Source: Candidatus Omnitrophota bacterium
GTDB lineage: Bacteria > Omnitrophota > Gorgyraeia > Zapsychrales > Fredricksoniimonadaceae
Length of the DNA: 64,000 nt
Assembly: GCA_015232565.1 (NCBI GenBank)
Contig: JADFZK010000002.1
Location: forward strand, 64,935 to 128,934
Direction: 5' to 3'
In this document: in pieces, positions 7,266 through 31,163 of the stretch
How positions within the stretch are numbered: the first letter of the stretch is position 1
Layout: each line of letters starts with the position of its first letter
The notes under the pieces: model-generated
What the model saw: the letters and a program-made list of their open reading frames with translations, nothing else
What the model was told of the DNA's origin: nothing
Databases searched by the model: none
Program-made: the position numbers and the translations under genes

Positions 7266-8028
7266 CTGTCTTGACCAGGCTACTTTTAGTGTGTTCGACC
7301 AGATCTCCCGCCGGGCGGGCAAAGTGATCGGCGATTACAACCTGATAAAAGATGGTGACCGAATCCTGGTGGCGGTTTCCGGCGGTAAAGACAGCCTTAC
7401 CTTGCTTAACGTAATGATCCATCGCCGTAGTATCGCGCCGGTTAATTTTGACCTGCTGGCCATTCATGTGGACCTGGGGATGCCCGGGCCCGACCTGGGG
7501 TTGTTGGAAGCGTACCTTAAATCTACCGGAATACCCAACCATATTGCCCGGGCCGACCTGTTTAAAACTTCCGATGGACAGAAACACCCCGACCTGAATT
7601 GTTTCTGGTGTTCCTGGAACCGGCGCAAGATCCTGTTTCGCTACGCTCAGCAGAACGGTTTTAACAAGATCGCTTTCGGTCATCACCTCGACGATATTGT
7701 GGAAACCATCCTGTTAAACCAGTTTTTTAAGGGTGAACTAAGTGCCATGTGCCCGCGGCAGGAGATCTTCAACGGAGCCTTGACTCTTATTCGTCCGCTG
7801 ACTTATGAGAACGAGCAAACGATCCGCACTTTTGCCAAAGGCGCCGGCATTGGCGGCCTGGGCGGCTGCCGCTGTCCGGTAGCGGCGCATACCCAGCGCG
7901 CTGCCATCAAGAAGATCATCAGCGAAATGGAAAAAGTCACTCCGGCATTAAAGATCAATATCTTTAACAGCTTAAAGAACATCAAGCCGGAGTACATTCC
8001 TGAGAACATGATTGAAAATTTATTTTGA
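7249..8028 (+). CDS. ttcA: tRNA 2-thiocytidine biosynthesis protein TtcA (PP-loop ATP pyrophosphatase)
   Basis: PP-loop VAVSGGKDS plus Fe-S cysteine motifs CFWCSWNRR and CRCPV. The ATG at 7249 (MDHLFS) is preferred because the longer ORF from 7144 overlaps the upstream gene. Confidence 0.8.
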   Translation: MDHLFSCLDQATFSVFDQISRRAGKVIGDYNLIKDGDRILVAVSGGKDSLTLLNVMIHRRSIAPVNFDLLAIHVDLGMPGPDLGLLEAYLKSTGIPNHIARADLFKTSDGQKHPDLNCFWCSWNRRKILFRYAQQNGFNKIAFGHHLDDIVETILLNQFFKGELSAMCPRQEIFNGALTLIRPLTYENEQTIRTFAKGAGIGGLGGCRCPVAAHTQRAAIKKIISEMEKVTPALKINIFNSLKNIKPEYIPENMIENLF

Positions 8029-8056
8029 TATAGGTGTTTCGTGTGTTATATTTAGG

Positions 8057-8074
8057 TTAGTTCATATGAACTAA
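8057..8074. promoter_or_regulatory. Perfect 18-bp palindrome TTAGTTCATATGAACTAA, a likely autoregulatory operator of the TA operon
   Basis: The palindrome lies about 14 nt upstream of the antitoxin start. It is followed by the RBS AAGAAGGGAG. Type II TA operons are usually autorepressed at such palindromes. Confidence 0.45.
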
Positions 8075-8087
8075 GAAGGGAGTTACT

Positions 8088-8327
8088 ATGGTTTCAGTTA
8101 ACACACACCAGGCGAAAACAAAACTCTCCGCACTATTGGCCGCTGTGCAATTTAAGGGTGAGCGAGTGATAATTTGCCGCCATGGAACACCGGTGGCCGA
8201 ATTAACACCTTTTCGCGGAGTGCCTAAAGATCCGTTTCACCAGGATCCTGCCCTGAAGAAAGTCATTTTTAAAGGCTCGCCGATGGACCCTCTTGATGAT
8301 GAAGAGTGGTCCAGGAAGATCAGGTAA
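8088..8327 (+). CDS. Type II antitoxin of the Phd/YefM family
   Basis: 79 aa with N-terminal HQAKTKLSALLAAVQFKGERVIICRHGTPVAELTP, typical of Phd/YefM. It lies directly upstream of a PIN toxin gene. Confidence 0.7.
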   Translation: MVSVNTHQAKTKLSALLAAVQFKGERVIICRHGTPVAELTPFRGVPKDPFHQDPALKKVIFKGSPMDPLDDEEWSRKIR

Positions 8328-8333
8328 ATACCT

Positions 8334-8720
8334 ATGATAATCCTGGATACCTGCGCTTTGCTTTGGCTGGCTGCTGATCAGAAAGAATTATCGTTAAAAG
8401 CCCGTGCGGCTATCACGAAACATGCCCAGACCTTGTACATTTCCGCGATCTCGGCTTTCGAACTGGCGGTAAAACAACGTCGTAAGAAACTAATACTACC
8501 TTTGCCGGCGGGGGAATGGTACGCTAAAACTTTGGATCATCATGGTATTCAGGAGATCGTTGTGTCTTCTGATATCTTGGTGCGTTCGGTAAACCTGCCG
8601 TCACTCCATAATGATCCTTGCGATCGTATAATTATTGCTACGGCCTTGCATCATCGTTGCCCGATACTCACCTGTGACAGCTGGATATCCCGTTACCCAA
8701 TTGTTACAACCATATGGTAA
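8334..8720 (+). CDS. vapC: PIN-domain toxin VapC
   Basis: 128 aa. Starts MIILDTCALLWL with the conserved acidic residues D5, E(FELAV) and D(DPCDRIIIATA) of PIN nucleases. There is a 6-nt gap from the antitoxin. Confidence 0.8.
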   Translation: MIILDTCALLWLAADQKELSLKARAAITKHAQTLYISAISAFELAVKQRRKKLILPLPAGEWYAKTLDHHGIQEIVVSSDILVRSVNLPSLHNDPCDRIIIATALHHRCPILTCDSWISRYPIVTTIW

Positions 8721-8775
8721 ATTGCATTCCGGAACATGCTCAATTACGACTGGATAAAATTACTGGAGGCATGAA

Positions 8776-8994
8776 ATGACTGTTTATACGTATTCCAACG
8801 CTCGTCAAAATCTATCCAGAGTTCTCGACAAAGCCCGCAGGGAAGGGGAAGTGCTTATTAAACGCCAGGATGGCAGCCTGTTTTCTCTTAGGCGAGCATT
8901 GCCTGTTACGTCACCCCTTGATGTTACCGGCATCGCTACGAATATTTCCCGACATGACATCCTGGCCGCAGTCCGCGAATCACGTTCGCGCTGA
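8776..8994 (+). CDS. Orphan Phd/YefM-like antitoxin with no cognate toxin gene downstream
   Basis: 72 aa with N-terminal YSNARQNLSRVLDKARREGEVLIKRQDGSLFSL, an antitoxin-like fold signature. The RBS GGAGG lies 6 nt upstream. The downstream 290 nt contains only short repeats and no toxin-sized ORF. Confidence 0.5.
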   Translation: MTVYTYSNARQNLSRVLDKARREGEVLIKRQDGSLFSLRRALPVTSPLDVTGIATNISRHDILAAVRESRSR

Positions 8995-9090
8995 CGTTCT
9001 TAACATCCGTACCTGCGCTATTAAAACGTCATTGCGAGGAGCGAGCCAGTGTTTTCGTGTGGCGAGCGAAGAAGCAATCAACGTAAATAA

Positions 9091-9130
9091 TTCAATGTGT
9101 CCCGGTTTACTTCAATGTGTCCCGGTTTAC
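9091..9130 (+). repeat. Two tandem copies of a 20-bp unit, TTCAATGTGTCCCGGTTTAC
   Basis: Exact duplication at 9091-9110 and 9111-9130. A 17/20 inverted copy (AACCGGGACACATTGAA) is at 26214-26232. Confidence 0.8.
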
Positions 9131-9424
9131 TTAAGCCATTGTCCCGCAATGTTTTGTGTTTCTTCTGGTTTGTCGTAAATCAATCGCAAATCATTCTGAA
9201 AACACCTTGAATTCCTACCCGCTGTATGGTTAGATAGTGCATCTCCATCTATAAATTCTTTTTAAATTCTTATCTACTCAGGGTTGACTTTTTTCATGCC
9301 CTTATTTGAATACACTAAAAGATTTAACTTTTTAATAGCCCAACGCACGACCACTGTGACGTGTAAGCTATTGAACGCCTGCCGGCATGCCTTTTGCACC
9401 CCGTTAATTAATGATTTATTCATG

Positions 9425-9530
9425 TTCGTAGGGGCGGACTTTATGTCCGCCCGGCAATATGACGATTCTTCAATGCGTCAGACAAAAAACGTCATTACGC
9501 CGGGCGGACATAAAGTCCGCCCCTACGGAC
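9425..9530. repeat. REPIN/BIME-like element: two inverted REP-like hairpin units flanking a roughly 45-nt spacer
   Basis: Left arm CGTAGGGGCGGACTTTATGTCCGCCCGGC at 9427-9455. Right arm GCCGGGCGGACATAAAGTCCGCCCCTACG at 9499-9527 is its exact reverse complement. Each arm is itself a hairpin (GGGCGGAC/GTCCGCCC stem) next to a conserved GTAG. The spacer contains its own ATGACG...CGTCAT inverted repeat. Confidence 0.75.
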
Positions 9531-9721
9531 AGATAAGAATTCCATTACTTCACGCAATAGACCAGTTCCGCCCAGGCTTACATGTTGAAATTCCATCGCA
9601 TCGAATTATAGCCAAGGGCGAACCCGGCGCCCCGGTAGAGATTTCATCCCGTCGAACTTTAGCGAAGGTCGGGCCGAGCACCCTTGTGAACTCGCATTTG
9701 GCGTTGCGGGTGGTGGCGGGC

Positions 9722-12700
9722 ATGATATTGGCGGCGGGGGTTTTGCTGTCCTGCTCCACGGCGCAAGCGGCGTCACGGTACTGGGTGGGGGCGAACGGGG
9801 CTAATACCAATGATGCCAATAACTGGGCCGGGGCGGATCCGGCCAGTTGCGCTGGCGGCGGGGCGGGTATTCCCGGAAATTCGGACATCGCGTATTTTGA
9901 CGCGGATTGCGACAGCAATGCCTCGATCAACGCCAACCTGAACGTCGCCGGGATTAACATTGCTTCCGGCTACTCCGGCACGATCACCCAAACCAGCACT
10001 TACACGGTAACTGTCGGCGCCAGTCATTATACCCAGGTTGACGGCACATTTACCGGCGGATCAGGTGCTATCACTAATTCAGGCAATTTCAGTGTAACCG
10101 GCGGCGCATTCACCGCGACCAGCGGCACACTCTCCGTGGCAGGCGATGTCAATCTGAGCGGCGGGACTTATACCCATAATAACGGCATCATTGACCTTAC
10201 CAAAGCCGCGGGCACCCAAACCTTTGATTCCGGCAATCAAACCTTTTACCGGATCAATCATAATGCCGCGGGCACTCTGCAATTGATCAACAATTCCGTA
10301 ACGGCTACAAATTATATTTATCAGACAGCCGGCACCATTGATCTCAATACGTTGAGCATGACCAGCCAGGGTAACGGGCGTGTTCGTTACGGCGGGATCT
10401 TGAATAATGGTACGTTTACAGTATCTGGTTTAACAGGAAACCAGGTTACCATTGATAACAATGCGGTTATTGGAGCCAATATTTACATTACAGCAGGTAG
10501 CATAAATTTTACTGACGCCACTTTTAATGGCGTGGCATTCTTAAATTGTAATGGGACGACTCAAGGTGATTCTGTTAGCTATGGCGGAAGCACCTTTAAT
10601 AGCGACACAACGCTCCAAACCAGTGGGAGTGTGCAATTTTATACCAGTCAGTCCAAGGCGGATACATTTAACGGTCCGCTAACACTTAATAATACAAGTA
10701 ACGGCACGCTTACCATCAACTGGGCAGGCAACAATACTAAATTTAACAACAATATTTATGTTAACAACACCGGCTCCGGTACAGTTTCGGTCGGGGCGTA
10801 TTACGGTTCCAGCATGACCCTGGCTGACGGATATACCATTTCGGTTGGCTCAAGCGGCGTTTCTTCCGGCACTTTAAGTATCAAGGGCTTGTTGCAGGCC
10901 GGCACCACAGCCCAGAATATTGCGCTCACGGGCACCGCAACCATGAACATTTCTTACGGCGGCACCTTTAATGGCGACCTGACGGTTACCGGCGGCACGG
11001 GAAATACTGTTAACACCTACTCCACTGCCACCCGCTTCAACGGCAATCTGAATGTCACGGCTGGCATCATCAACCTGAACGGCGGCACCTTCAATGGGAC
11101 GTCTTATTTCAAGCAGACCGGAACAACGTCTGATAGCGGGGGCAGTAGCGGCAGCTGCACATTTAACAGCACAACCACGATCGAGAATAACGGATCCAGG
11201 GGATTTTCTTTGGGCTATTCTACGACCGACACCTTTAATGGACCACTGACCTTAACAAATACCAGTTCCGGTTATGTGAATGTGGTGTCTGGCACCAGCG
11301 GGACCGTTTTTAATAACGACATTTTCTTTAATAATACCGGCGCAGGAACAACCTCAATCGGCAATTACAATGGCACCAGGACTTCAACGCTGGCGGATGG
11401 CCATTCTTTGTCGATAGGCACTACGGGTTTTTCCAGCGGGACTCTGGCTATTCGTGGTTTAACGCAGGTGGGTTCGACGGGTTCGACCTTGGATCTCACC
11501 GGCACATCTTCGCTTGTTATGAATTATGCCAATACATTTAATGGGCCGTTAACGATCAGTACACCTGTGTTCAACCTGGGGCGTTCAACATTTAATGGCC
11601 CGGTAACGATCACAAAGACCGGGCTGGCAGGTTCTTATACGTATACCGATGGAGGCGACACCTTCAATAGCACGTTCACTTTTAATCAGAACGGAACAGG
11701 AAGCGGCGGTGGTGCTACCTCGGCATATCAGTATCTTGGAAATAACGGTCTTTATGAAACATTTAATGGAGATGTTACCTTTAACATCTTAAACAATTCG
11801 GATATTGGCCTAAATCAAACAGGTTATAAATTCAATGGCAATCTGATTGTGAATAGCTCAGGGTCCGGGAATATTTATATTTATAACTCTACTTTAGCAA
11901 CAGGGAAGACGATTTCTGTTGGAACAGGATATACAGGCGGAGAATTAAGGTTGCAGGGGTTTAATCAGGTCGGGGCAACGGCCCAGAATTTAACAATGGG
12001 TGGGACATCTATATTAACCTTGGGAACAGGTACAACATTTAACGGAGATACGACGTTTAGTGTTTATCAAACCACGGCGACTTCGGTTACATTTAATGGG
12101 GCGACAACATTTGAAGCAACGAAGTATTGGCGAATTTACGGATCAACTTTTAATGGTCCAGCCACAATGAATAATCCCAGTACTAATGATTGGTCCGGGT
12201 TTCAGAACACCGCGACCACGTTTAATAATGATGTAACATTTACCACTACTGGAAATCAAAGTTCCTATGTCGCTTTTGGTGTAAACACTATCTTTAATGG
12301 TAACGTTACTGGGGCAAATCGGGTGGTTTGGGGTAATGGGGGTATCCCCGTCTTTAGTAAGACTTCCGGGGTACAAACGTTGGATACTGCGAACATCGCT
12401 TTCTCAAACCTGACGCATTCCGGTGCGGGTGCGTTGCAATTAACAGGCAATAACTTAAGAATGACCAATGGTACTGCTCTTATTAATTCGGCAGGCACGC
12501 TAGACCTTAATGGCCGGAACATTACGGCCGTGTCGACGACGTTTACACTCACCAACTCCGGCGGTAATATTCAGCTTATCAATACCGAAACCACCAACAA
12601 TTTCACCCAGTACACGTCCAACGGCACCTGGACGTATGTGGGCAATGGCACCGCGACCACGCGCACGATCAAGGATTTCGGCGCTACGGATTATTTTAAC

Positions 12701-15700
12701 CTTTCGATCAATGCAACAGGCGCTACGCCGGATGTGTTTCAGATCACTTCTCCGTTAAATCTGGTAGGCGCCTTGCGGGTGCAAACACCATTTACACCCG
12801 GCACCTATTTGGTTACGCTCTCGGGGGCCACGGCCAGTTATACGTCCACGAATATTGATATTTCCAAGACCACCTGGACAGGCGGGTCTTTGAATATCCA
12901 ATCCGACCTGGATCAAACCCTGCCTTCGGGAGAGACGTATGGAACGTTGCAGTTGGGGCGTTTCTCAGGCACGGGCGGGACGATCTTTAACATGGGGTCC
13001 ACCATCGAGGGGAACTGGACAGTGGATGCGGATGCCACGGTAAACCTGACCGGGGACCTGGTGATCAGCGGGAGTGCCACCATCAACGGCCGGGTGAATA
13101 CGCAAGGCTGGAACCTGACAATTGCCGGAACACTCGACATGAACGGCACTCTGGACGCCACCCGCGGCGCCACGGCCAGCACCATTACGCTCAGCGGCAG
13201 TGCAGATTTTACCGGCGGCACCTTCACACGGGATAATTCGGTCCTGCTCTTTAACGGCACCGGCACCAAAACGCTCAAGTCCGCCAGCAACACTTTTAAC
13301 ACCCTGCAAGTCAATAACGCGGGGCTGACACTCTCCATGCAGGATTCACTCTTGGTCGGCGGCGACCTGACACTCACAGCTGGCACACTGGACGTAACCG
13401 CATCGAATTATGCGATTTCGGCGGCGGGCACCTGGACCAATGCGGGCGGCACCTTCACGCCGCGCAACGGCACGGTCACACTCAACGGCGCCAGTCAGCG
13501 GATCAACGGGACAAACACGTTTTACAATCTGCAAAAGAATGTCACCACGGCCGGTACGCTCACTTTTGAATCCGGCGCATCCCAGACGATCAGCAATGCC
13601 TTGACGTTAACCGGTCAATCCGGTGCGATATTAACCCTGGCCTCATCGTCGGGTGGCAGTTACTGGAATGTTAATCCGGCGGGCACGCACACGTTAAGTT
13701 ATTTAAGTGTCAGTGATTCGAACAATACGGGGGCTGACATCAACACAGCGGGGTTGAATATTGCCGATGGCGGCCATAATGTGGGCTGGACTTTTGTAGC
13801 CAACGGCACCTGGACGGGCGGGGGGGCCGATAATAACTGGTCGACTCCCGGCAACTGGAGCAGTGGCGTTCCTGCCACTTCCGATGTGGTTGTTTTCGAT
13901 ACAACCAGCACCAAGAGTTGTATTGTTGATATTCCAGCTACTGTTGCGGGGTTGAACATGGCAACCGGCTTCACCGGCACGATCACGGTTTCTAACGGGT
14001 TTACGATTAATGGTGACGCCACCTTGAACGCGGGGGATTTTAACGCTGCCGGTGCCAGCACGCTCGACATTAACGGATCGCTGGCGATCATCAGTTCGGA
14101 TTTTACCGCGCCCACCAATGCGGTCATGTCGATATCGAAATCCCTCACTATCGACTCAACGGCTTCGTGGAACTTCAGCGGGTCTGGCACCCTGTTCTTT
14201 GACGCCTCGGGCACTACCAAGACTATAACAACGAACAGTAAACAACTTCAGAATGTACGGTTCGATGCCTCTTACGCAGGGTCTACCGGCACGATCTGGA
14301 CCCTGCAGGATAATTTTACCGCCTACTCAATTAATGTGGCCACTACGCTGGCCAATGCGTCACTGGTGGATAACGGCAAGACGGTTACAGTGAACAGCCC
14401 GACGGCCGCAAATATCACCATTAATACCAGTGCAGTTAATATAGCGCCCTCCACCGGCACCTGGGTAATGGCAGCCAACGGGACGGTTTCGAACACTGTG
14501 CAGGGGTTTGCGATCTTTGAAGCCAGCGCCGGGGTTACGGTAACAATTTCGGGAACATGCGTGTTCAAAAAAGGTGTTTTAGGGGCGAACGCTACCGTTA
14601 ACGGGGGGCAGTTCTATGCATATTCACCTACGGCCAATGACTATTTTGATTTTGCGGCGGGATCAAATGTGTCAAACATTCTTACGTTATATGGCGGCGC
14701 CAATCGAACACAAAAATCAATTAATATTACTGGCCGGTTCTTCGACTTCTCCTACGCTAATTCATCTGTCATCATGAGCGGTGACTGGACAGTAGGGAAT
14801 ATGCAGCTTTCCCCATCCGCTGGTACAAATTCTGACACCGAGGCTGAAGCCCGTGTTTTTGATACCAATAGCAAGAATTTAACGGCGAACGGCTGGGTGA
14901 TCCTTGGTGCCGCAGGATCTTTAAGCCGGCAGGGCCAGCAAAAATTATTACTCCGCAACGGGACACACGTTATTACCGGAGCCTTGTATGTTGTCCAGGG
15001 AGCAGTGCCATCGGCGGGGTTGGTGATCCTGGATGATTCCGCCGGCTCGGTAGCGCTCGAAGTAGATGGCAACTGGACTATGAAAGACATGAAAGTAACT
15101 TTGGGTTCGGCCTCGGTGATATCAAAGGGGAATATGGATTATTCCAGCATGTACATCAGCAGTGAGTCCACCTGGGGCATGAACGCCGGAACCTCTACCA
15201 TTACGCTCTCGGGCGCGGCTAACCAGACGATCACTGCGGCCAACAGCGTGGACAATACCGGTGCAGCTATCGCGGAATTCTATAACATGGTGATCAATAA
15301 AACCGGCGCTGCCGGCACCGATAAAGTGATCATTTCATCGCCCGCTAACACGCTTGACCTCACTGTAACCAACAGCGCGCGGGTTATTGATGGCATCCTG
15401 GACTTGGCCACTAACAGCGCAGTGATGACCATCGGCGTGGCTCTGACAATCGACACTGCCGGGTCCATGACCGTGGGTGCGGCCTCCACCTTGACCATCG
15501 CCGGTACCGCGGCAACCTATAAATCAAGCGATATATTCTCGATCGCTAACACCACCTGGGCGTCCACGGCCACATTGAACTTGCAATCCGATCTCGACCA
15601 GACTTTACCGTCAGATGAGACCTACGGCAACCTGCAGCTGGGCCGCTACTCGGATTCTGGGGGGACGATTTATACCATGGGTTCCACTATCGCCGGGGAC

Positions 15701-18700
15701 TGGACAGTAGATTCTGACGCCACTGTGGAATTATCGGGCAATCTGTTTGTAACCGGCGATGTGACCATCAACGGACAGGTGAATACCAACGGGTTTAATA
15801 TGACTGTTGGCGGTAACTTAGATATCGCATCCGGCGCTACACTTGACGCCAGTCAGGATACCGGCTCCAGTAAGTCTGCTATTACGGTTACCGGATATTT
15901 TCATCCGACCGGCAATTTTGTTACTGACAGCACTACCCTTGCCATCGGTGCGGGCACTACCGCTATGAAATCCCCCTGGAGCCTGGGCAGTATCACGGTA
16001 GCCTCCGGTGCTGTTTTAACTACCGACGGATATAACTTTACCACTGCCACAGATGTTACGGTGCCCGGCACCCTGAACGCGGCCAGCGGAACAGGCGGCG
16101 CCAGTACGCTCACTGTGGGCGGAGGAGTTAATCTGGCCAATGGTGCCTTTACCGGTTCCGATTCAACTCTGATCCTGAATGCCAGTTCCGGTGCACAGTC
16201 ATTTGTAACCAATAATCAAACGTTCAATGTGATCCGGGTGACCGGCGCGGGTTCCTGGACTGTGACCGGGGGCTTAACCACCAGCAGTGATTTCACCATG
16301 ACGGCAGGCACCTTCAACGCCGCCAGCGCCGGCACCATGGACGTGAACGGGTCATTGGCGGTCACCGGGGCTTTCATTGCTCCGTCGGCGGTAATGTCGG
16401 TGGCCGGGTCGCTCACTATCGATGCCGCCACCACCTGGACCAGTTCTTCCGGCATCCTGAATTTTGATGCCAGCGGCTCCGGCAAGACCATTACCACCAA
16501 CGGCAAAAATCTTTACAATGCCTATTTCACCGGCTCCGGCGACTGGACTTTTAACGACAGCACCACGATCACCAACGATTTCACTCTTGCCGCCGGTACA
16601 CTAAAAGGCGGGACTTCCACTATTAGCGTTGGCCGGAACTGGGATTCCTCGGGAGCAACGGCTACATTTACATACAATCAGTCTACGGTTGACCTTACCG
16701 GAACCGGGCAAATGAAACTGCCTTATAATTCCTATTTTTATAACCTTAAGATCGCGGCACCCGGGCAGACAACCACCGTGCTCGATCCCACCAGCCTGAG
16801 AAACTTTTACATTTATGGCACTCTTACCCTGGGCTCCGGAACGCTGACTCATTCCACTGGCGTCTACGGATTATTATTTATACTTCGGGGAACCGTTACT
16901 CCGCTGGTTTATAACAATACAAATTTCGTTTACGGCAATATGTTGATCTACAACACTCAGGAAGACGGCTACACCTTTACCGTGCCGGCTATATCGACCG
17001 CGTCGAATCTGGCCGTTTCATTTACTCCCGCGGCAACTGTTACCTACAACCTTGGCGGCGCTTTGAATATCGGCGCCTTTGATGCTTATCAACAAACGGC
17101 TGGCAAGACATTGACCTACAATACAAATGGCTTTCCCATAACAACGTCAAACTTTGTCCGGGCTGTTGCCGGAAATGGTTCCATGGCTTATGCCCGAGGT
17201 GCCACGATTGCCAATTTCGCGAACAGCACAGTTACCGACGGGTGGGATGCCGGCACAACCTGGAGTAGTTACGCATATTCAGGAACGGTTAATCTTGAGT
17301 CTTCTGTCTGGGCTGTGTCCTGGGACTGGACCATGCAATCCTCCAATGGCACCATCACAGTCAATCCCGGCACATCCACAGTAAAGCTTTACAACACATG
17401 TAAATTGTGGTCGGGAGGAACTTCGTTTAACAATCTGCAGATCCTGGGCAATAGAACGCCCTACGATAACGTGTCGGTACTTGGTTCGTTGTACCTCAAG
17501 TCGTTTTCTTTTAACTGCTCCACCTATAACGCGGCCGTTACGGTGGCAGGCGCGGTTACGATCGATGCCGGATTCGCGTTCACCGCCGGAACCGCACCAT
17601 TTAATATTTCAGGCCCGACAGCCGCTTATACCAATGTTAATATCGCCGCTACCACCTGGACGGGCGGCACTTTGAACATACAGACCGATCTCGACCAGAC
17701 CCTGCCGTCGGGGGAGACTTATGGCAACCTGCAACTGGGCCGCTACTCAGGAAGTGGCGGGACGATATTCACTATGGGCTCGACCATTACTGGCAACTGG
17801 ACAGTGGATGCGGATGCCACGGTGGAACTATCGGGCAATTTAACTATCTCGGGGAATGCCACTATTAACGGCCGGGTGAATACCAACGGCTGGAACTTAA
17901 CTGTGGGCGGCAACTTTGATATTGCCTCCGGCGGCACACTTGACGCCAGCCAGGATACCGGCTCAACCAAATCGCGGATCGCGGTCACGGGTTACTTTCA
18001 TCCGCTGGGGAATTTCATCTCGGACAATACCACTCTTTTGATCGGCGCCGGCACTTCTACCATGAGATCCGCCTGGAGCCTGGGCAGTATCACCATTGCC
18101 GCCGGGTCCACTCTAGTTACTGACGGCTACAACTTCACCACCACCTCCGACGTAACCGTGCCCGGCACCCTCAACGCCGCCAACGGGGCCGGAGGCTCAA
18201 GCACTCTGGCCATCGGCGGCAGTGTGAACTTTACCGGCGGCACATTTACCAATACCCTTTCGACAGTTATTCTTAATTCGACCACCACGGCTCAAACCAT
18301 ACTTACGGCCGACAACCAGTACAATGTGCTAACCGTGTCCAATTCGGCGGCGGGCGGAGTGACCTTCTCGGATGCCTGGACGGTGGTGGACTTTACCGAT
18401 ATTACCGCCGGGTCAAAATTGTATTTCGAGAACGGCATAACTTATACAATATCCGGCACGCTCACATTAAACGGCACCTCGGGGAATCTTATAACACTCA
18501 ACACCCACGACGGCTTAACCACCAACTTCATACTTAAACCCGCGGGAGGTGTGCCCACGGTTAATTATTTAAGCGTACGGCGAGCGGATGCCCAAACTAA
18601 TGACATTACTTGTGTAAATTGCAACGACGCCGGCTACAACAACTCCGGCACCGGAAATAAACTCTGGGACTTCGACAACAGCGCAGAAAACGGCGGCTTA

Positions 18701-18724
18701 ATCTTCGGCGCCATGATGTTCTAA
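9722..18724 (+). CDS. Giant (about 3000 aa) secreted repeat protein; a predicted beta-helix, adhesin-like surface protein rich in FxxN motifs
   Basis: Single uninterrupted ORF. A signal-peptide-like start is present (LALRVVAGMILAAGVLLSCSTAQA|AS), reached by ATG at 9722 or TTG at 9698. The ORF-track start at 9284 is an artefact of read-through across the REPIN region. Composition is heavily biased to T/G/N/S/A. Dozens of TFNG/FNGx (FxxN) motifs are present, together with long internal near-duplications. No recognisable C-terminal sorting motif. Confidence 0.8.
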   Translation: MILAAGVLLSCSTAQAASRYWVGANGANTNDANNWAGADPASCAGGGAGIPGNSDIAYFDADCDSNASINANLNVAGINIASGYSGTITQTSTYTVTVGASHYTQVDGTFTGGSGAITNSGNFSVTGGAFTATSGTLSVAGDVNLSGGTYTHNNGIIDLTKAAGTQTFDSGNQTFYRINHNAAGTLQLINNSVTATNYIYQTAGTIDLNTLSMTSQGNGRVRYGGILNNGTFTVSGLTGNQVTIDNNAVIGANIYITAGSINFTDATFNGVAFLNCNGTTQGDSVSYGGSTFNSDTTLQTSGSVQFYTSQSKADTFNGPLTLNNTSNGTLTINWAGNNTKFNNNIYVNNTGSGTVSVGAYYGSSMTLADGYTISVGSSGVSSGTLSIKGLLQAGTTAQNIALTGTATMNISYGGTFNGDLTVTGGTGNTVNTYSTATRFNGNLNVTAGIINLNGGTFNGTSYFKQTGTTSDSGGSSGSCTFNSTTTIENNGSRGFSLGYSTTDTFNGPLTLTNTSSGYVNVVSGTSGTVFNNDIFFNNTGAGTTSIGNYNGTRTSTLADGHSLSIGTTGFSSGTLAIRGLTQVGSTGSTLDLTGTSSLVMNYANTFNGPLTISTPVFNLGRSTFNGPVTITKTGLAGSYTYTDGGDTFNSTFTFNQNGTGSGGGATSAYQYLGNNGLYETFNGDVTFNILNNSDIGLNQTGYKFNGNLIVNSSGSGNIYIYNSTLATGKTISVGTGYTGGELRLQGFNQVGATAQNLTMGGTSILTLGTGTTFNGDTTFSVYQTTATSVTFNGATTFEATKYWRIYGSTFNGPATMNNPSTNDWSGFQNTATTFNNDVTFTTTGNQSSYVAFGVNTIFNGNVTGANRVVWGNGGIPVFSKTSGVQTLDTANIAFSNLTHSGAGALQLTGNNLRMTNGTALINSAGTLDLNGRNITAVSTTFTLTNSGGNIQLINTETTNNFTQYTSNGTWTYVGNGTATTRTIKDFGATDYFNLSINATGATPDVFQITSPLNLVGALRVQTPFTPGTYLVTLSGATASYTSTNIDISKTTWTGGSLNIQSDLDQTLPSGETYGTLQLGRFSGTGGTIFNMGSTIEGNWTVDADATVNLTGDLVISGSATINGRVNTQGWNLTIAGTLDMNGTLDATRGATASTITLSGSADFTGGTFTRDNSVLLFNGTGTKTLKSASNTFNTLQVNNAGLTLSMQDSLLVGGDLTLTAGTLDVTASNYAISAAGTWTNAGGTFTPRNGTVTLNGASQRINGTNTFYNLQKNVTTAGTLTFESGASQTISNALTLTGQSGAILTLASSSGGSYWNVNPAGTHTLSYLSVSDSNNTGADINTAGLNIADGGHNVGWTFVANGTWTGGGADNNWSTPGNWSSGVPATSDVVVFDTTSTKSCIVDIPATVAGLNMATGFTGTITVSNGFTINGDATLNAGDFNAAGASTLDINGSLAIISSDFTAPTNAVMSISKSLTIDSTASWNFSGSGTLFFDASGTTKTITTNSKQLQNVRFDASYAGSTGTIWTLQDNFTAYSINVATTLANASLVDNGKTVTVNSPTAANITINTSAVNIAPSTGTWVMAANGTVSNTVQGFAIFEASAGVTVTISGTCVFKKGVLGANATVNGGQFYAYSPTANDYFDFAAGSNVSNILTLYGGANRTQKSINITGRFFDFSYANSSVIMSGDWTVGNMQLSPSAGTNSDTEAEARVFDTNSKNLTANGWVILGAAGSLSRQGQQKLLLRNGTHVITGALYVVQGAVPSAGLVILDDSAGSVALEVDGNWTMKDMKVTLGSASVISKGNMDYSSMYISSESTWGMNAGTSTITLSGAANQTITAANSVDNTGAAIAEFYNMVINKTGAAGTDKVIISSPANTLDLTVTNSARVIDGILDLATNSAVMTIGVALTIDTAGSMTVGAASTLTIAGTAATYKSSDIFSIANTTWASTATLNLQSDLDQTLPSDETYGNLQLGRYSDSGGTIYTMGSTIAGDWTVDSDATVELSGNLFVTGDVTINGQVNTNGFNMTVGGNLDIASGATLDASQDTGSSKSAITVTGYFHPTGNFVTDSTTLAIGAGTTAMKSPWSLGSITVASGAVLTTDGYNFTTATDVTVPGTLNAASGTGGASTLTVGGGVNLANGAFTGSDSTLILNASSGAQSFVTNNQTFNVIRVTGAGSWTVTGGLTTSSDFTMTAGTFNAASAGTMDVNGSLAVTGAFIAPSAVMSVAGSLTIDAATTWTSSSGILNFDASGSGKTITTNGKNLYNAYFTGSGDWTFNDSTTITNDFTLAAGTLKGGTSTISVGRNWDSSGATATFTYNQSTVDLTGTGQMKLPYNSYFYNLKIAAPGQTTTVLDPTSLRNFYIYGTLTLGSGTLTHSTGVYGLLFILRGTVTPLVYNNTNFVYGNMLIYNTQEDGYTFTVPAISTASNLAVSFTPAATVTYNLGGALNIGAFDAYQQTAGKTLTYNTNGFPITTSNFVRAVAGNGSMAYARGATIANFANSTVTDGWDAGTTWSSYAYSGTVNLESSVWAVSWDWTMQSSNGTITVNPGTSTVKLYNTCKLWSGGTSFNNLQILGNRTPYDNVSVLGSLYLKSFSFNCSTYNAAVTVAGAVTIDAGFAFTAGTAPFNISGPTAAYTNVNIAATTWTGGTLNIQTDLDQTLPSGETYGNLQLGRYSGSGGTIFTMGSTITGNWTVDADATVELSGNLTISGNATINGRVNTNGWNLTVGGNFDIASGGTLDASQDTGSTKSRIAVTGYFHPLGNFISDNTTLLIGAGTSTMRSAWSLGSITIAAGSTLVTDGYNFTTTSDVTVPGTLNAANGAGGSSTLAIGGSVNFTGGTFTNTLSTVILNSTTTAQTILTADNQYNVLTVSNSAAGGVTFSDAWTVVDFTDITAGSKLYFENGITYTISGTLTLNGTSGNLITLNTHDGLTTNFILKPAGGVPTVNYLSVRRADAQTNDITCVNCNDAGYNNSGTGNKLWDFDNSAENGGLIFGAMMF

Positions 18725-18737
18725 AAAATGGAGATGT

Positions 18738-19157
18738 ATGAAAAAAGCACAAAAGTTTCTCGTGGGGTTGTTGTTCTTAATAATGGCTGCCGGTCAAGCC
18801 TGGGCGCAAACAGCCTTGCTGGCGGTGCCCTATCGGTTTACGGCGGATTCGGGTGAGGAAGTGGAACTGGTGGTCTATTACACAGCCGGGTATAAAGCGG
18901 TGGAACACTATGGTTTTAATACAACTGTTGTACACCCCAATGGCAATATTACCATGGCGCTAACGGCTAACGAAGCGGGTGGCAAGATCAAACTGGCTCT
19001 CAAAGTCCTGGATAACAAAGTAACCGATACCACTGTCACCTCCGCGGGTTTACCCGCTGGCTCAAAAGTCCTGAGCATTAACAGCCGCAGTGGTGAAAAA
19101 CTATCATTCACCTTCACCGGCCCGAAGCCAACAGTCACATCAGACCGGATTAAATAA
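18738..19157 (+). CDS. Small secreted protein of unknown function, co-transcribed with the giant repeat protein
   Basis: 139 aa. RBS GGAG at 18728. Signal peptide MKKAQKFLVGLLFLIMAAGQAWA|QT. Starts 14 nt after the giant gene's stop and is followed by a hairpin. Confidence 0.6.
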   Translation: MKKAQKFLVGLLFLIMAAGQAWAQTALLAVPYRFTADSGEEVELVVYYTAGYKAVEHYGFNTTVVHPNGNITMALTANEAGGKIKLALKVLDNKVTDTTVTSAGLPAGSKVLSINSRSGEKLSFTFTGPKPTVTSDRIK

Positions 19158-19163
19158 AAAGAA

Positions 19164-19190
19164 AGAGCCGCGATTGCTCGCGGCTTTCCG
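19164..19190 (+). terminator. Stem-loop (AGCCGCGA-TTGC-TCGCGGCT) downstream of the small secreted protein gene; a weak intrinsic-terminator candidate
   Basis: Perfect 8-bp GC-rich stem starting 7 nt after the stop codon. The trailing sequence is TTTCC rather than a long U-tract, hence low confidence. Confidence 0.4.
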
Positions 19191-19293
19191 GTAACATATA
19201 TAACCGGGACATTATATTTCTTCCAGCTCGTTGAACCATTTCAATGACTGCTTTTCAAATTAATATAATGTTCCGGTTTACATCGTCTAATTG

Positions 19294-19322
19294 CCGGGCC
19301 GAGACAAGCTCGGCCGCTACGG
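19294..19322. repeat. Solo REP-like hairpin unit, CCGGGCCGAGACAAGCTCGGCCGCTACGG
   Basis: 7-bp stem GGCCGAG/CTCGGCC with loop ACAAG, adjacent to CTACG. It matches the right arm of the element at 30689-30717 (CCGGGCCGACACAAGGTCGGCCCCTACGC) with paired compensatory G/C swaps in the stem. Confidence 0.65.
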
Positions 19323-19366
19323 AAATTATTTATTCTATAAATCTGTTAAATACGCACATAAGTTTT

Positions 19367-19564
19367 ATTTATGGCTGACTTTGTGTAAGAAAACTCATGA
19401 ATTATGGTTGACTTTGTGTAAGGAAACGCCTGATTTATGGTTGACTTTGTGCAAGAAAACTCCTGATTTAGGGTTGACTTTGTGTAAAAAAACGCCTTAA
19501 TTATGGTTGACTTTGTGCACATATTCGAACGATCTTGGGCTGACTTTGTGCACAAAACAAAAGG
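19367..19564 (+). repeat. Six tandem 33-bp direct repeats with the core TTATGGTTGACTTTGTG(T/C)AAG
   Basis: Units start at 19367, 19400, 19433, 19466, 19499 and 19532. The period is exactly 33 bp. Units 1-5 are about 80-90% identical and unit 6 is degenerate. The array lies in the intergenic region immediately upstream of the thiC promoter. Confidence 0.85.
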
Positions 19565-19581
19565 CATCTTGATAATCCGTG

Positions 19582-19590
19582 TGCTATAAT
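19582..19590 (+). promoter_or_regulatory. Extended -10 promoter element (TGcTATAAT) for thiC
   Basis: TGCTATAAT at 19582-19590 lies about 40 nt upstream of the thiC start, with GGAG RBS at 19621. A TTGATA hexamer sits only 10 nt upstream, which is too close for a canonical -35. Confidence 0.5.
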
Positions 19591-19618
19591 GCGGCACTTT
19601 TTATATGAAATTCGTTAA

Positions 19619-21169
<1,551 letters not shown>

Positions 21170-21221
21170 CCCCCTTTTTAGACTTTCATCTCAACTTTTA
21201 TCTGCTTTTGTCTGACTTTAG

Positions 21222-21250
21222 TTGACATAAACGCACTTTAGTGCTATATT
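21222..21250 (+). promoter_or_regulatory. Sigma70-like promoter TTGACA-N17-TATATT upstream of the AAA ATPase gene
   Basis: TTGACA at 21222-21227, a 17-nt spacer, and TATATT at 21245-21250. The gene start at 21257 would make the transcript nearly leaderless. Confidence 0.5.
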
Positions 21251-21256
21251 TGAAGT

Positions 21257-22558: not shown

Positions 22559-22682
22559 TCTTTCCGCCTCCCGCACTTGTTTTTTGCCAATTCATATTAC
22601 ATACTTATACAGGTATGAGGCGCCTGCATGGATCTTACGCTGATCTTTGCGGCTTTTTAAAGCTCGTTGGGGGACCAGGGGA

Positions 22683-26210: not shown

Positions 26211-26213
26211 GAA

Positions 26214-26232
26214 TAACCGGGACACATTGAAT
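26214..26232 (-). repeat. Inverted copy of the 20-bp unit found in tandem at 9091-9130
   Basis: AACCGGGACACATTGAA is the reverse complement of TTCAATGTGTCCCGGTT (17/20 to the full unit). It lies in the convergent intergenic region 3' of both flanking genes. Confidence 0.6.
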
Positions 26233-26298
26233 TTCTGAACTTGTATACCCGATCAATAGATTGAATTATTTGAGTACCGACGAAGATCTGAGCTGTTA

Positions 26299-30302: not shown

Positions 30303-31163
30303 ATGGGTTTAACCAATTCAGCCTCGAACGCGATATTTAATAACATTGCCTGGCGTTATGACCGGGTGAACACGGTGTTGTCTTTTGGTTTGCATGAAGT
30401 CTGGCGCGCTCGCCTGGCGCGGGCTTTTCCCGCCGGCACCCGCTCTCTTTTAGACCTCGCCTGCGGGACAGGTGCGATTCCCTTGGCGTTCTTGCGTTAC
30501 CGTACTGATGTCACCGACCTGACCGGCCTGGATCTTTCCGTGCAAATGCTGAAAATAGCCAGTCAACGACTCCTTAATAATGGCAATCATCACTTGTTTA
30601 GCAAATCAGGAGATTTAATCAGGTGCGTAGGGGCGGACTTTATGTCCGCCCTGCGGAGTGGTGATAATAGCTCAGTTTGCCTCTCGTGCCGGGCCGACAC
30701 AAGGTCGGCCCCTACGCTCGACAAATCTCTCGATCTGCTACACAATTACAGCCCACTAGTCAGGTTGATCGAGGGTGACGCGCTTAATCTAACTTTTAAA
30801 GACGATTCTTTCGACGCTGTTACGGTGGGTTTTGCCCTACGCAATATCCCGGACGTAATTAAATTATTAACCTCCGCTTACCGAGTGCTGAAGCCGGGCG
30901 GCTATTTTGGCATATTGGAATTCTCGCGCCCCAAAGCCCTCATTACTCGAGCTTTCTATTGGTTATACTTAAGTTGTATTGTGCCGATTGTGGGCCTGTT
31001 AATTACCGGGAACTGGGCGGCTTATTACCACCTGGGTAAAAGCATTAAACAATTTCCCGAACCCGAGCGCTTTCACCGGATGCTCGCTCAATCCGGATTT
31101 AAGGAAATAACCGCATATCCGCTGGCATTGGGTGCGGTCACTTTGTACATGGCGAAAAAATGA
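30303..31163 (+). CDS. menG: Demethylmenaquinone/ubiquinone C-methyltransferase MenG/UbiE carrying an in-frame insertion of roughly 40 aa from a REPIN-like element
   Basis: UbiE hallmarks YDRVNTVLSFGLHEVWR, SAM motif LDLACGTG and GDALNLTFKDDSFDAVTVGFALRNIPD. The protein is 286 aa against about 240 typical; the extra segment (CVGADFMSALRSGDNSSVCLSCRADTRSAPTLDKS...) is encoded by the palindromic element at 30625-30720. Confidence 0.8.
   Translation: MGLTNSASNAIFNNIAWRYDRVNTVLSFGLHEVWRARLARAFPAGTRSLLDLACGTGAIPLAFLRYRTDVTDLTGLDLSVQMLKIASQRLLNNGNHHLFSKSGDLIRCVGADFMSALRSGDNSSVCLSCRADTRSAPTLDKSLDLLHNYSPLVRLIEGDALNLTFKDDSFDAVTVGFALRNIPDVIKLLTSAYRVLKPGGYFGILEFSRPKALITRAFYWLYLSCIVPIVGLLITGNWAAYYHLGKSIKQFPEPERFHRMLAQSGFKEITAYPLALGAVTLYMAKK
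30625..30720. repeat. REPIN/BIME-like palindromic element inserted within the menG coding sequence
   Basis: Left arm GCGTAGGGGCGGACTTTATGTCCGCCC at 30625-30651 is identical over 24 nt to the left arm at 9427-9452. Right arm CCGGGCCGACACAAGGTCGGCCCCTACGC at 30689-30717 is a variant hairpin with compensatory stem changes. The reading frame is kept open through the element. Confidence 0.75.

What the first reader, a model, noticed from the sequence alone, without database searches (positions are those of the whole stretch)
9722..18724. About 3000-aa secreted repeat protein rich in FxxN motifs, a predicted beta-helical adhesin or surface fibre
Seen in sequence:
- A single 9 kb ORF with a signal peptide and extreme T/G/N/S/A bias.
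- More than 25 occurrences of (T/K/R/I)FN(G/N/S) motifs (TFNGPLT, TFNGDLTVTGG, KFNGNLIVN ...), spaced like the FxxN repeats of polymorphic membrane/autotransporter passenger proteins.
- Segments such as GAGALQLTGNNL..TNGTALINSAGTLDLNG resemble autotransporter-associated beta-strand repeats.
- Several segments end in a recurring YLSV(S/R)DS.N...W motif (residues about 1450 and 3100), which looks like a domain-terminating module.
- There is no recognisable autotransporter beta-barrel, LPXTG, PEP-CTERM or T9SS C-terminal signal. The protein ends in ...GGLIFGAMMF.

The export route is therefore unclear. Giant surface proteins of this style are a hallmark of some small-celled, host-associated candidate lineages.
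Basis: partly seen in the sequence, partly recalled or inferred. Interest (0 to 1): 0.6.

Follow-up and report, generated by a model that had tools for sequence, protein, structure and literature searches.

The report
Giant secreted beta-helix surface protein
A real 9-kb gene in an uncultured Omnitrophota bacterium encodes a 3,000-residue secreted, rod-like beta-helix protein built from two head-to-tail units of a widespread but uncatalogued surface-protein family; it is an ordinary kind of bacterial surface fibre, not a chlamydial or autotransporter adhesin, and how it leaves the cell is still unknown.

Summary
The ORF is real.

The "FxxN/Pmp" reading fails:
- FxxN is not enriched.
- GGA[ILV] occurs once.
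- The real motif is xFNG: 19 copies, about 24 residues apart, confined to aa 267-857. I read it as a rung signature.

The "YLSV" motif is a genuine terminating module. With a W-x-G...NW head module it defines two "beads" (aa ~17-1360 and ~1361-2985). A full HMMER scan finds this module family in 5,907 cluster representatives. Sampled relatives carry TPS domains (8 of 27), SLH or T9SS tails; this protein has none.

No secretion genes lie in the 64 kb. The gene sits in an ~11.7-kb islet, beside a VapBC pair, that two related genomes lack.

Verdict: a new member of a known kind. A recurrent short hydrophobic C-terminal tail is the only unusual lead.

The parts
9686..18724 (+). Coding sequence of the giant protein (3,012 aa plus stop), equal to NCBI MBF0386416.1 / HQL20_01005.
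   Evidence: ORF. The identical 3,012-aa product was recovered and named.
9686..9769 (+). Signal peptide MNSHLALRVVAGMILAAGVLLSCSTAQA, with an AQA|A cleavage site. An alternative lipobox-like LLS|C lies at residues 20-23.
   Evidence: Read from the sequence. It is the only segment with hydropathy typical of a transmembrane helix (KD 2.19; next best 1.59), and it matches a PS51257-like regular expression.
9770..10303 (+). Head module 1 (YWVG...NW...P..D..F...GYSGTITQ), the N-terminal start of bead 1.
   Evidence: Local head HMM, residues 22-206, iE 1.7e-51. AF2 pLDDT is about 90 or more over tile residues 1-170.
10520..12301 (+). xFNG rung region: 19 [TKRI]FN[GNS] motifs with a median spacing of 24 aa, arranged in about 190-aa tandem units.
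   Evidence: Motif count and shuffles. Tile self-BLAST of units 203-400 / 393-590 / 567-767 / 666-846. Spacing median.
12815..13144 (+). Conserved 'SDLDQTLPSGETYGxLQLGR' module, copy 1.
   Evidence: DNA repeat family D1.
13487..13801 (+). Tail module 1 (TFYNL..LTFESG.SQTIS..LTLTG.SG..LTL.S..G..W....YLSVSDS......GGHNVGWTF), which ends bead 1.
   Evidence: Local tail HMM, residues 1268-1372 of the 3,012-aa product, iE 3.8e-39.
13772..14329 (+). Head module 2 (WTGGGADNNWSTPGNWSSGVPATSDVVVFD...GFTGTITV), which starts bead 2 directly after tail 1.
   Evidence: Local head HMM, residues 1363-1548, iE 1.9e-42.
15500..15829 (+). Conserved LPSDETYG module, copy 2.
17597..17926 (+). Conserved LPSGETYG module, copy 3. 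Its flanks are about 65% identical to copy 2 at the protein level.
   Evidence: This is the best-modelled part of AF2 model 1 (pLDDT 85-96).
18332..18676 (+). Tail module 2 (...YLSVRRADAQTNDITCVNCNDAG....NKLWDF), which ends bead 2.
   Evidence: Local tail HMM, residues 2883-2997, iE 1.4e-39.
18677..18721 (+). Fifteen-residue C-terminal extension NSAENGGLIFGAMMF: a short hydrophobic tail ending in Phe.
   Evidence: Similar tails occur in relatives.
18738..19157 (+). Small secreted orphan ORF (139 aa, MBF0386417.1). It starts 13 nt after the giant gene's stop behind a GGAG and is probably co-transcribed.
   Evidence: No family hit. No relative in the fetched loci or in metagenome contigs.
8002..19738 (.). 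An islet of about 11.7 kb that two related genomes lack. It holds vapB-like and vapC genes, an orphan antitoxin-like ORF, a palindromic element, the giant gene, the small ORF and 33-bp tandem repeats.
   Evidence: Synteny with L007 and L008: the PP-loop ATPase gene is followed directly by thiC. blastn break points.
9423..9531 (.). A 48-nt-arm inverted repeat (palindromic element) about 155 nt upstream of the start codon.

Best explanation
The gene encodes a Sec-exported, non-enzymatic, right-handed parallel beta-helix fibre.

Shown:
- The mature protein is two consecutive 'beads'. Each starts with a W-x-G...NW head module and ends with a YLSV...W-x-F tail module.
- Bead 1 contains about 600 residues of xFNG-marked repeats.
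- Both beads carry copies of a conserved LPSGETYG module (three in all).

Inferred:
- The xFNG motifs mark single helix rungs of about 24 residues.
- If the whole chain is helical, that gives about 125-130 rungs at 4.8 A each, a rod of roughly 55-65 nm.
- The rod is displayed on or released from the cell envelope and acts as an adhesin or spacer fibre, as do the passengers of type V secretion systems that it resembles in fold.
- It is an accessory, strain-variable surface gene.

Unresolved: how it crosses or attaches to the outer membrane. Candidates are a type II secretion system or an Omp85-type partner encoded elsewhere, N-terminal lipidation at LLS|C, or the short hydrophobic C-terminal tail.
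For: Gene and export signal:
- A 9.4-kb open frame whose longest exact internal DNA repeat is only 29 nt.
- A signal peptide and no other transmembrane segment.

Fold:
- No enzyme family matches.

Architecture:
- Two heads and two tails are found by HMM.
- Across relatives, 37% of 427 internal tail modules are followed by a head-like motif, against 6.5% of random windows.

Family context points to an extracellular role:
- 5,907 cluster representatives match at E<=1e-3 and 296 at E<=1e-30.
- Of 27 relatives scanned, 8 carry a TPS secretion domain, and others carry SLH, a T9SS tail, LamG or fn3 domains.
- A paired-Cys loop (CVNC) sits in the tail module here and in several relatives. A disulphide there would fit an oxidising compartment; this is inference.

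Accessory status: the gene is absent between the same flanking genes in two related assemblies.
Against: - Nothing shows localisation or function directly.
- Only about 25% of the chain was modelled. The xFNG part reaches only pLDDT 55-79, and the tail module was not modelled usefully (pLDDT about 30).
- Foldseek against the PDB gave only weak beta-helix matches (best E 5e-3, TM 0.24-0.35).
- No secretion or anchoring component lies anywhere in the 64 kb.
- A fully folded rod of about 60 nm would not fit in a normal periplasm, so the type II route is not straightforward.
- The protein is a singleton cluster from one assembly.
Confidence: 0.55

Rival explanations
1. It is a beta-helix polysaccharide-degrading enzyme (lyase, hydrolase or depolymerase) secreted to attack polymers or prey envelopes, as proposed for the much larger Omnitrophota giant proteins.
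Against: - No Pfam or NCBIfam enzyme or PbH1/Beta_helix/pectate-lyase family matches at E<=1, on the whole protein or on tiles.
- The architecture is repeated modules, not a single catalytic helix with elaborated loops.
Confidence: 0.12
2. It is the passenger of a split type V-like system. A TpsB/Omp85-type transporter encoded elsewhere in the genome exports it, with the head module or the C-terminal tail replacing the TPS domain as the recognition element.
For: - Eight of 27 relatives carry a TPS domain in front of the same modules.
- Named Omnitrophota relatives are annotated 'filamentous hemagglutinin N-terminal domain-containing'.
- The fold is closest to EtpA, HMW1 and autotransporter passengers.
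Against: This protein has no TPS domain and no barrel. No Omp85/ShlB gene lies in the window. No precedent is known to me for TPS-independent recognition.
Confidence: 0.12
3. It is an envelope-retained structural protein (a periplasmic or outer-membrane lipoprotein, or an S-layer- or sheath-like component), tethered by N-terminal lipidation at LLS|C, rather than an adhesin.
Against: An AQA|A signal peptidase I site follows 5 residues later. The relatives I inspected (P0002, P0004, P0026, P0052) have signal peptidase I-type signals and no lipobox.
Confidence: 0.13
4. The 9-kb ORF is an assembly chimera, or a fusion of two shorter genes joined at the bead 1/bead 2 boundary.
For: Only one assembly carries it. 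The boundary between the two beads lies at about aa 1360.
Against: - The longest exact internal repeat is 29 nt, and the three module copies are 60-77% identical at the DNA level, too divergent to mislead an assembler.
- Tail-to-head junctions inside one polypeptide are the rule in this family.
- A Ca. Omnitrophus protein aligns collinearly over 885 aa spanning most of bead 2's first half.
- The frame is open for 3,146 codons.
Confidence: 0.03

Closest known systems
TpsA exoproteins of two-partner secretion (FhaB, HMW1, EtpA)
   Different: No TPS domain at the N-terminus, no TpsB gene nearby, and 10-14% identity only.
Classical autotransporter passengers (pertactin, UpaB, Vag8, Ag43)
   Different: No C-terminal beta-barrel translocator. 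The protein is six to ten times longer and is divided into head/tail beads.
Chlamydial polymorphic membrane proteins (Pmp; GGA[ILV]/FxxN repeats)
   Same: A repetitive, T/G/S/N-rich predicted beta-helix with a short Phe/Asn-containing rung motif.
   Different: The motif is xFNG, not FxxN. FxxN is at chance level, GGA[ILV] occurs once, and there is no Chlam_PMP HMM hit and no autotransporter barrel.
PATR (autotransporter-associated beta-strand repeat) proteins of Planctomycetota/Verrucomicrobiota
   Same: From my own knowledge, those proteins also begin with W-x-G...NW-type N-termini followed by Gly/Thr/Asn-rich rungs. Omnitrophota belong to the same PVC superphylum (PMC10066038).
   Different: No match to the PATR models at E<=1.
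Omnitrophota giant proteins ('Archaeovorin' and dockerin types; >20-kb ORFs)
   Same: Same phylum. They are large, poorly annotated and presumed to act at the surface (PMC10066038; 10.1101/2023.11.21.568195).
   Different: Those are over 10-85 kaa, have many transmembrane helices and SecA-like domains, and lie next to T2SS/T4P loci. This protein is 3 kaa, has only a signal peptide, and sits among housekeeping genes.
Uncurated head/tail 'bead' beta-helix family (NCBI labels: 'hypothetical protein', 'beta strand repeat-containing protein', 'GLUG motif-containing protein')
   Same: It shares the head module, the tail module and the LPSGETYG module. Closest are Ca. Omnitrophus sp. (72% over the module), an Omnitrophota MAG and an Elusimicrobia MAG.
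   Different: This copy combines two beads with a long xFNG stretch and three LPSGETYG modules. It is a singleton at 90% identity.

Membership tests
Chlamydial Pmp family | Multiple GGA[ILV] and FxxN tetrapeptide repeats; Chlam_PMP HMM | tested here: not met
   GGA[ILV] occurs once. FxxN occurs 13-14 times against 13 +/- 3 in shuffles. No Chlam_PMP hit at E<=1.
Classical autotransporter (type Va) | C-terminal 12-strand beta-barrel translocator domain | tested here: not met
   No autotransporter barrel family in Pfam or NCBIfam scans of the whole protein or of the last 300-aa tile. The protein ends 15 aa after the tail module.
PATR repeat proteins | Match to the PATR repeat HMM (Pfam/TIGRFAM) | tested here: not met
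   No hit at E<=1 on the whole protein or on ten 300-aa tiles.
TpsA / two-partner secretion substrate | N-terminal TPS (haemagglutination activity) domain | tested here: not met
   The first 300-aa tile has no TPS hit, whereas 8 of 27 relatives do.
TpsA / two-partner secretion substrate | Adjacent TpsB (Omp85/ShlB) transporter gene | tested here: not met
   The window ORFs scanned against Pfam (nearly all those of 150 aa or more) are housekeeping, regulatory or unassigned; none matches a TpsB/Omp85 family. The rest of the genome was not available.
RTX / type I secreted adhesin | GGxGxD nonapeptide repeats and a C-terminal T1SS signal; nearby ABC/MFP/TolC genes | tested here: not met
   Zero GG.G.D motifs, no HemolysinCabind hit, and no T1SS genes in the window.
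T9SS cargo | C-terminal Por_Secre_tail / TIGR04183 domain | tested here: not met
   No hit. One relative does carry it.
LPXTG / PEP-CTERM sorted proteins | C-terminal motif plus a transmembrane helix plus a basic tail | tested here: not met
   No LPXTG or PEP motif and no C-terminal transmembrane segment. No NCBIfam CTERM model hit on the last 86 aa.
Right-handed parallel beta-helix fold | Stacked three-strand rungs; structural similarity to solved beta-helices | tested here: met
Pectate-lyase-like beta-helix enzymes | Match to a catalytic beta-helix family (Beta_helix/PbH1, pectate lyase, GH28, PL6 and similar) | tested here: not met
   None at E<=1.
Uncurated head/tail bead family | Tail module (TFxNL...LTF.xG.TQTI...YxxVxDS...W.F) and head module (W.G...NW...GYxGTIT) | tested here: met
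   Two tails (iE about 1e-39) and two full heads (iE 1e-42 to 1e-51). The family holds 5,907 representatives. The tail occurs in 138 of 150 top hits.
Omnitrophota giant proteins (West-Roberts et al. 2023; Seymour et al. 2023) | >20-kb ORF, many transmembrane helices, SecA-DEAD-like domains, T2SS/T4P neighbours | tested here: not met
   The ORF is 9 kb. There is no transmembrane helix beyond the signal peptide, no SecA family hit, and no T2SS/T4P genes in the 64 kb.
Bacterial lipoprotein | Lipobox with an invariant Cys at the signal peptidase II site | tested here: inconclusive
   LLS|C at residues 20-23 fits a PS51257-like pattern, but an AQA|A signal peptidase I site follows. No dedicated predictor was available.

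The most novel reading that the evidence does not exclude
The short hydrophobic C-terminal extensions that follow the last tail module could be a new, very short sorting or anchoring signal. Ours is GGLIFGAMMF-COOH. Relatives carry WFGFHF, MFMGSHF, FFGMDF and LDLGTVF, and a second type GP(L)[KR]GA[IV][IM][IM]VD-COOH found in named Omnitrophota proteins. Such a signal might work by beta-strand insertion into an outer-membrane partner. It would explain how signal-peptide-only beta-helix fibres reach or stay on the Omnitrophota surface without a type V, type IX or sortase-like system. The mundane alternative, which I rate more likely, is that the tail is simply the strand that caps the end of the helix.
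Probability: 0.12. Interest if true: 0.6.

Novelty: new member of a known kind. Interest (0 to 1): 0.3.

Why it matters
This result clears away a misleading analogy: the protein is not Pmp-like or autotransporter-like by any defining feature. It places the protein in a very large module family that Pfam and NCBIfam do not yet model. That family has 5,907 representatives at 50% clustering and is present in proteins of up to 7,700 aa.

Defining the head, tail and LPSGETYG modules would annotate many 'hypothetical' giant proteins in Omnitrophota, Elusimicrobia and other lineages.

For Omnitrophota biology, it shows a second class of large surface protein, distinct from the published transmembrane/SecA-type giants. 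This class has only a signal peptide, is beta-helical and is strain-variable. It also raises a concrete question: how does such a fibre cross the outer membrane?

Tried and rejected
- Whole-protein homologue search: timed out.
- Exact look-up of the contig for more context: the MAG is not in the contig index.
- Profile search for the C-terminal tail alone. When padded with X it returned no scorable candidates. So the test of whether unrelated proteins share the tail could not be made.
- Metagenome scans for the LPSGETYG module and for the small downstream ORF: both found nothing.
- afdb50 fold library: unavailable.
- PDB by sequence or by profile: nothing meaningful.
- PHROGs: nothing, so no phage tail-fibre link.
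- Rfam on the 5' and 3' flanks: nothing.
- A conserved partner gene: the P0004 locus shows no secretion gene. The small downstream ORF has no homologue beside relatives.
- Sigma-70 promoter scan upstream: none.
- Hydrophobic-pattern autocorrelation: only weak periodicity (peak 0.10 at lag 24 in the xFNG region), so the rung length rests mainly on motif spacing.

Full report
**1. The observation**

The + strand is open from 9284 to 18724 (3,146 codons; translation). The first ~134 codons are not protein-like; they include a 48-nt-arm inverted repeat at 9423-9531.

The deposited product, recovered as P0016, starts at GTG 9686 and is 3,012 aa. It is MBF0386416.1, 'hypothetical protein HQL20_01005', from a Candidatus Omnitrophica MAG contig of 135,475 bp. 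Its N-terminus MNSHLALRVVAGMILAAGVLLSCSTAQA|AS is a normal signal peptide with a basic n-region.

- Composition is T 16.6, G 12.9, S 10.1, N 9.9, A 9.1 %.
- [TKRI]FN[GNS] occurs 19 times against 1.0 +/- 1.0 in shuffles. All copies lie in aa 267-857 (numbering from ATG 9722). Their median spacing is 24 residues.
- FxxN itself is not enriched (14 against 13), and GGA[ILV] occurs once.
- YLSV lies at aa 1327 and 2949, and the C-terminus is ...GGLIFGAMMF.

**2. Integrity of the gene**

The longest exact DNA repeat inside the gene is 29 nt. The three copies of the largest repeat are only 60-77% identical at the DNA level. Repeat-driven misassembly is therefore unlikely.

A 1,599-aa protein of Ca. 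Omnitrophus sp. aligns collinearly with aa 1435-2266 at 36% identity. The protein is nevertheless a singleton from a single assembly, so a read-level check is still needed.

**3. Anatomy**

Tile-against-whole BLAST and local HMMs give the following plan:

- A signal peptide.
- Head module 1 (P0016 residues 22-206).
- About 600 aa of ~190-aa tandem units, each holding several xFNG motifs.
- A generic rung region holding LPSGETYG module copy 1.
- Tail module 1 (1268-1372, containing YLSVSDS...GWTF).
- Head module 2, immediately after (1363-1548).
- A long region with LPSGETYG copies 2 and 3. The ~500-aa blocks around them are about 65% identical.
- Tail module 2 (2883-2997, YLSVRRAD...LWDF).
- A 15-residue extension, NSAENGGLIFGAMMF.

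The protein is thus two head-to-tail 'beads'. In relatives, 157 of 427 internal tail modules are followed within 60 aa by a head-like motif, against 6.5% of random windows. The two-bead layout is therefore native to the family and is not a fusion artefact.

There is no transmembrane segment other than the signal peptide. There are no RTX, LPXTG or PEP motifs.

**4. Fold**

No Pfam, NCBIfam, PHROG or PDB sequence match exists at permissive thresholds, whether for the whole protein or for 300-aa tiles.

- AlphaFold2 on aa 17-480, with 19 further alignment rows (17 homologues and two paralogous segments of the protein itself), gave pLDDT 74. The head is above 90 and the xFNG part is 55-79. The model is entirely beta.
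- AlphaFold2 on aa 2590-3000 gave pLDDT 64. Residues 20-280 are confident, with the LPSGETYG module at 85-96. The tail module is unmodelled at about 30.
- Foldseek against the PDB was weak but returned the same kind of protein.

The 18-25-residue spacing of xFNG fits one motif per rung. That Phe and Asn point into the core is my inference from known beta-helices, not something I measured.

**5. Family**

- Word-indexed searches found few relatives. The C-terminal tile gave 4 (two Omnitrophica, one Elusimicrobia, one JGI). The N-terminal tile gave 17, including Cyclobacteriaceae and Limnocylindrales proteins.
- The exhaustive HMMER scan with a profile of the C-terminal tile found 5,907 representatives at E<=1e-3, 2,588 at E<=1e-10 and 296 at E<=1e-30. 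Most of the top 150 listed are 1-7.7 kaa, with up to 29 matched stretches, mainly to the tail module.
- Neither the tail nor the head module is in Pfam or NCBIfam.
- A Pfam census of 27 relatives found TPS secretion domains in 8, plus LamG, SLH, a T9SS tail, G8 and fn3. One relative starts with a prepilin methylation motif.
- Named close relatives are mostly Candidatus Omnitrophota, several annotated as 'filamentous hemagglutinin N-terminal domain-containing'.
- The LPSGETYG module is much rarer. Only three true loci were found among 185,579 species genomes: Ca. Omnitrophus sp. at 72%, an Omnitrophota MAG, and an Elusimicrobia MAG.

So the modules are passenger material, used with many different export or anchoring devices. 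This copy has only a Sec signal.

**6. Context**

Nearly all window ORFs of 150 aa or more were scanned against Pfam, and none matched a secretion-system family. The window holds ATP synthase, Trk, rRNA methyltransferase, thiC, menaquinone and TCA genes, regulators, and a few large ORFs of unknown function.

A 139-aa secreted orphan ORF follows the giant gene's stop by 13 nt, behind a GGAG, and is then followed by a GC-rich hairpin. This is probably a two-gene operon. The orphan has no detectable relatives.

Two related assemblies keep the gene order ATP synthase-TrkH-TrkA-RR-RsmB-APH-PP-loop ATPase, at 73-78% nucleotide identity. They then run straight into thiC across a gap of about 120-220 nt. 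Window 8002-19738 is absent from them. The giant gene therefore lies in an ~11.7-kb lineage-specific islet. It shares the islet with a vapB-like/vapC pair, an orphan antitoxin-like ORF, a palindromic element and tandem repeats.

**7. Mechanism**

- Shown: a Sec signal, a beta-helix fold for two tiles, the two-bead architecture, membership of an extracellular module family, and accessory status.
- Inferred: a straight fibre of about 55-65 nm with an adhesive or spacer role.
- Unresolved: passage through, or attachment to, the outer membrane.

One lead concerns the C-terminus. Nineteen relatives end 3-25 aa after a complete tail module. Six of them end in Phe (binomial P = 8e-5) and six in Asp. 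The tails are hydrophobic and recur in two forms: Phi-F-G-x-x-F, and GP(L)[KR]GA[IV][IM][IM]VD. The named carriers of the second form are Omnitrophota.

The tail may simply be the capping strand of the helix, or it may be a sorting or anchoring signal. I could not test whether unrelated proteins carry it.

A lipobox-like LLS|C in the signal peptide is a second, weaker possibility.

**8. Comparison and verdict**

The protein works like a type V passenger or TpsA adhesin, but it fails every membership test for the following:

- Pmp proteins
- PATR proteins
- autotransporters
- TpsA proteins
- RTX adhesins
- T9SS cargo
- LPXTG and PEP-CTERM proteins

It also differs in every defining respect from the published Omnitrophota giants, which are over 20 kb, have many transmembrane helices and SecA-like domains, and lie next to T2SS/T4P genes (PMC10066038; 10.1101/2023.11.21.568195; 10.64898/2026.06.07.730766).

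It is a new member of a known kind: a large beta-helical surface protein from a big but uncurated module family. Interest is modest. The C-terminal tail and the missing export route are the only parts that could grow into something new.

Noticed in passing
window 30626-30716 (inside ORF 30303..31163); also 9423-9531 and, degenerate, about 19290-19321: A palindromic element with arms CGTAGGGGCGGAC...GTCGGCCCCTACG. One copy sits in frame inside the UbiE/MenG-type methyltransferase gene, adding about 50 residues (...VGADFMSALRSGDNSS...) and splitting its Pfam match into two stretches. Another copy forms the 48-nt inverted repeat upstream of the giant gene. This recalls in-frame palindromic elements such as those of Rickettsia.
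   Followed up: partly
window 8002-19738 and 21170-26522, compared with L007/L008: Related genomes (73-78% nucleotide identity) lack the whole segment between the PP-loop ATPase gene and thiC. After thiC they carry an amino-acid permease where the window has a DUF4143 ATPase gene and a 1,187-aa ORF. These are two adjacent variable islets in otherwise collinear DNA.
   Followed up: partly
window 19367-19497 (extending to about 19550): A 33-bp unit (ATTTATGGTTGACTTTGTGTAAGAAAACTCCTG) is repeated 4-6 times just upstream of thiC, each copy with a TTGACT core. No TPP riboswitch or other Rfam family lies in this leader.
   Followed up: partly
window 22647-26210 and 43101-48290: Two large signal-peptide-bearing ORFs (1,187 and 1,729 aa) have no Pfam match. 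They share a ~350-aa N-terminal domain (39% identity, E 2e-76) and are otherwise unrelated.
   Followed up: partly
window 8088-8327, 8334-8720, 8776-8994: Three ORFs lie at the left edge of the islet. ORF 8334-8720 matches the PIN domain and is named VapC by NCBI. ORFs 8088-8327 and 8776-8994 look antitoxin-like by eye.
   Followed up: no
L003 4976-12274 (N-terminus); P0001, P0143 (N-termini); P0101, P0086 (C-termini): A short Y-x-GG-x-x-DG-[YFW]-D motif recurs right after signal peptides, or at the extreme C-terminus, of several family members. P0086 ends ...GGGGDGWDFAESAELLLE, which resembles this protein's ...LWDFDNSAEN. Its meaning is unknown.
   Followed up: no
L002 6917-11716 and about 13600 to the end (Ca. 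Omnitrophus sp.); L003 47-4498 and 4976-12274: Related Omnitrophota genomes carry large genes side by side. In L002 both neighbours match the giant protein, so they are paralogues. In L003 a 1,483-aa ORF lies next to the 2,432-aa family member, but only the latter matched.
   Followed up: partly
P0159 (JGI, 1,131 aa): A family member begins with a prepilin-type N-terminal methylation motif (MFKNKGFSLIELLL...) followed by fn3 and the beta-helix modules. It looks like a pilin-like fusion of the same passenger material.
   Followed up: no
window 26299-28104 (- strand): A 601-aa ORF with no Pfam match is conserved at 72% nucleotide identity in the related genome L007, and is probably a conserved enzyme of unknown family.
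   Followed up: no
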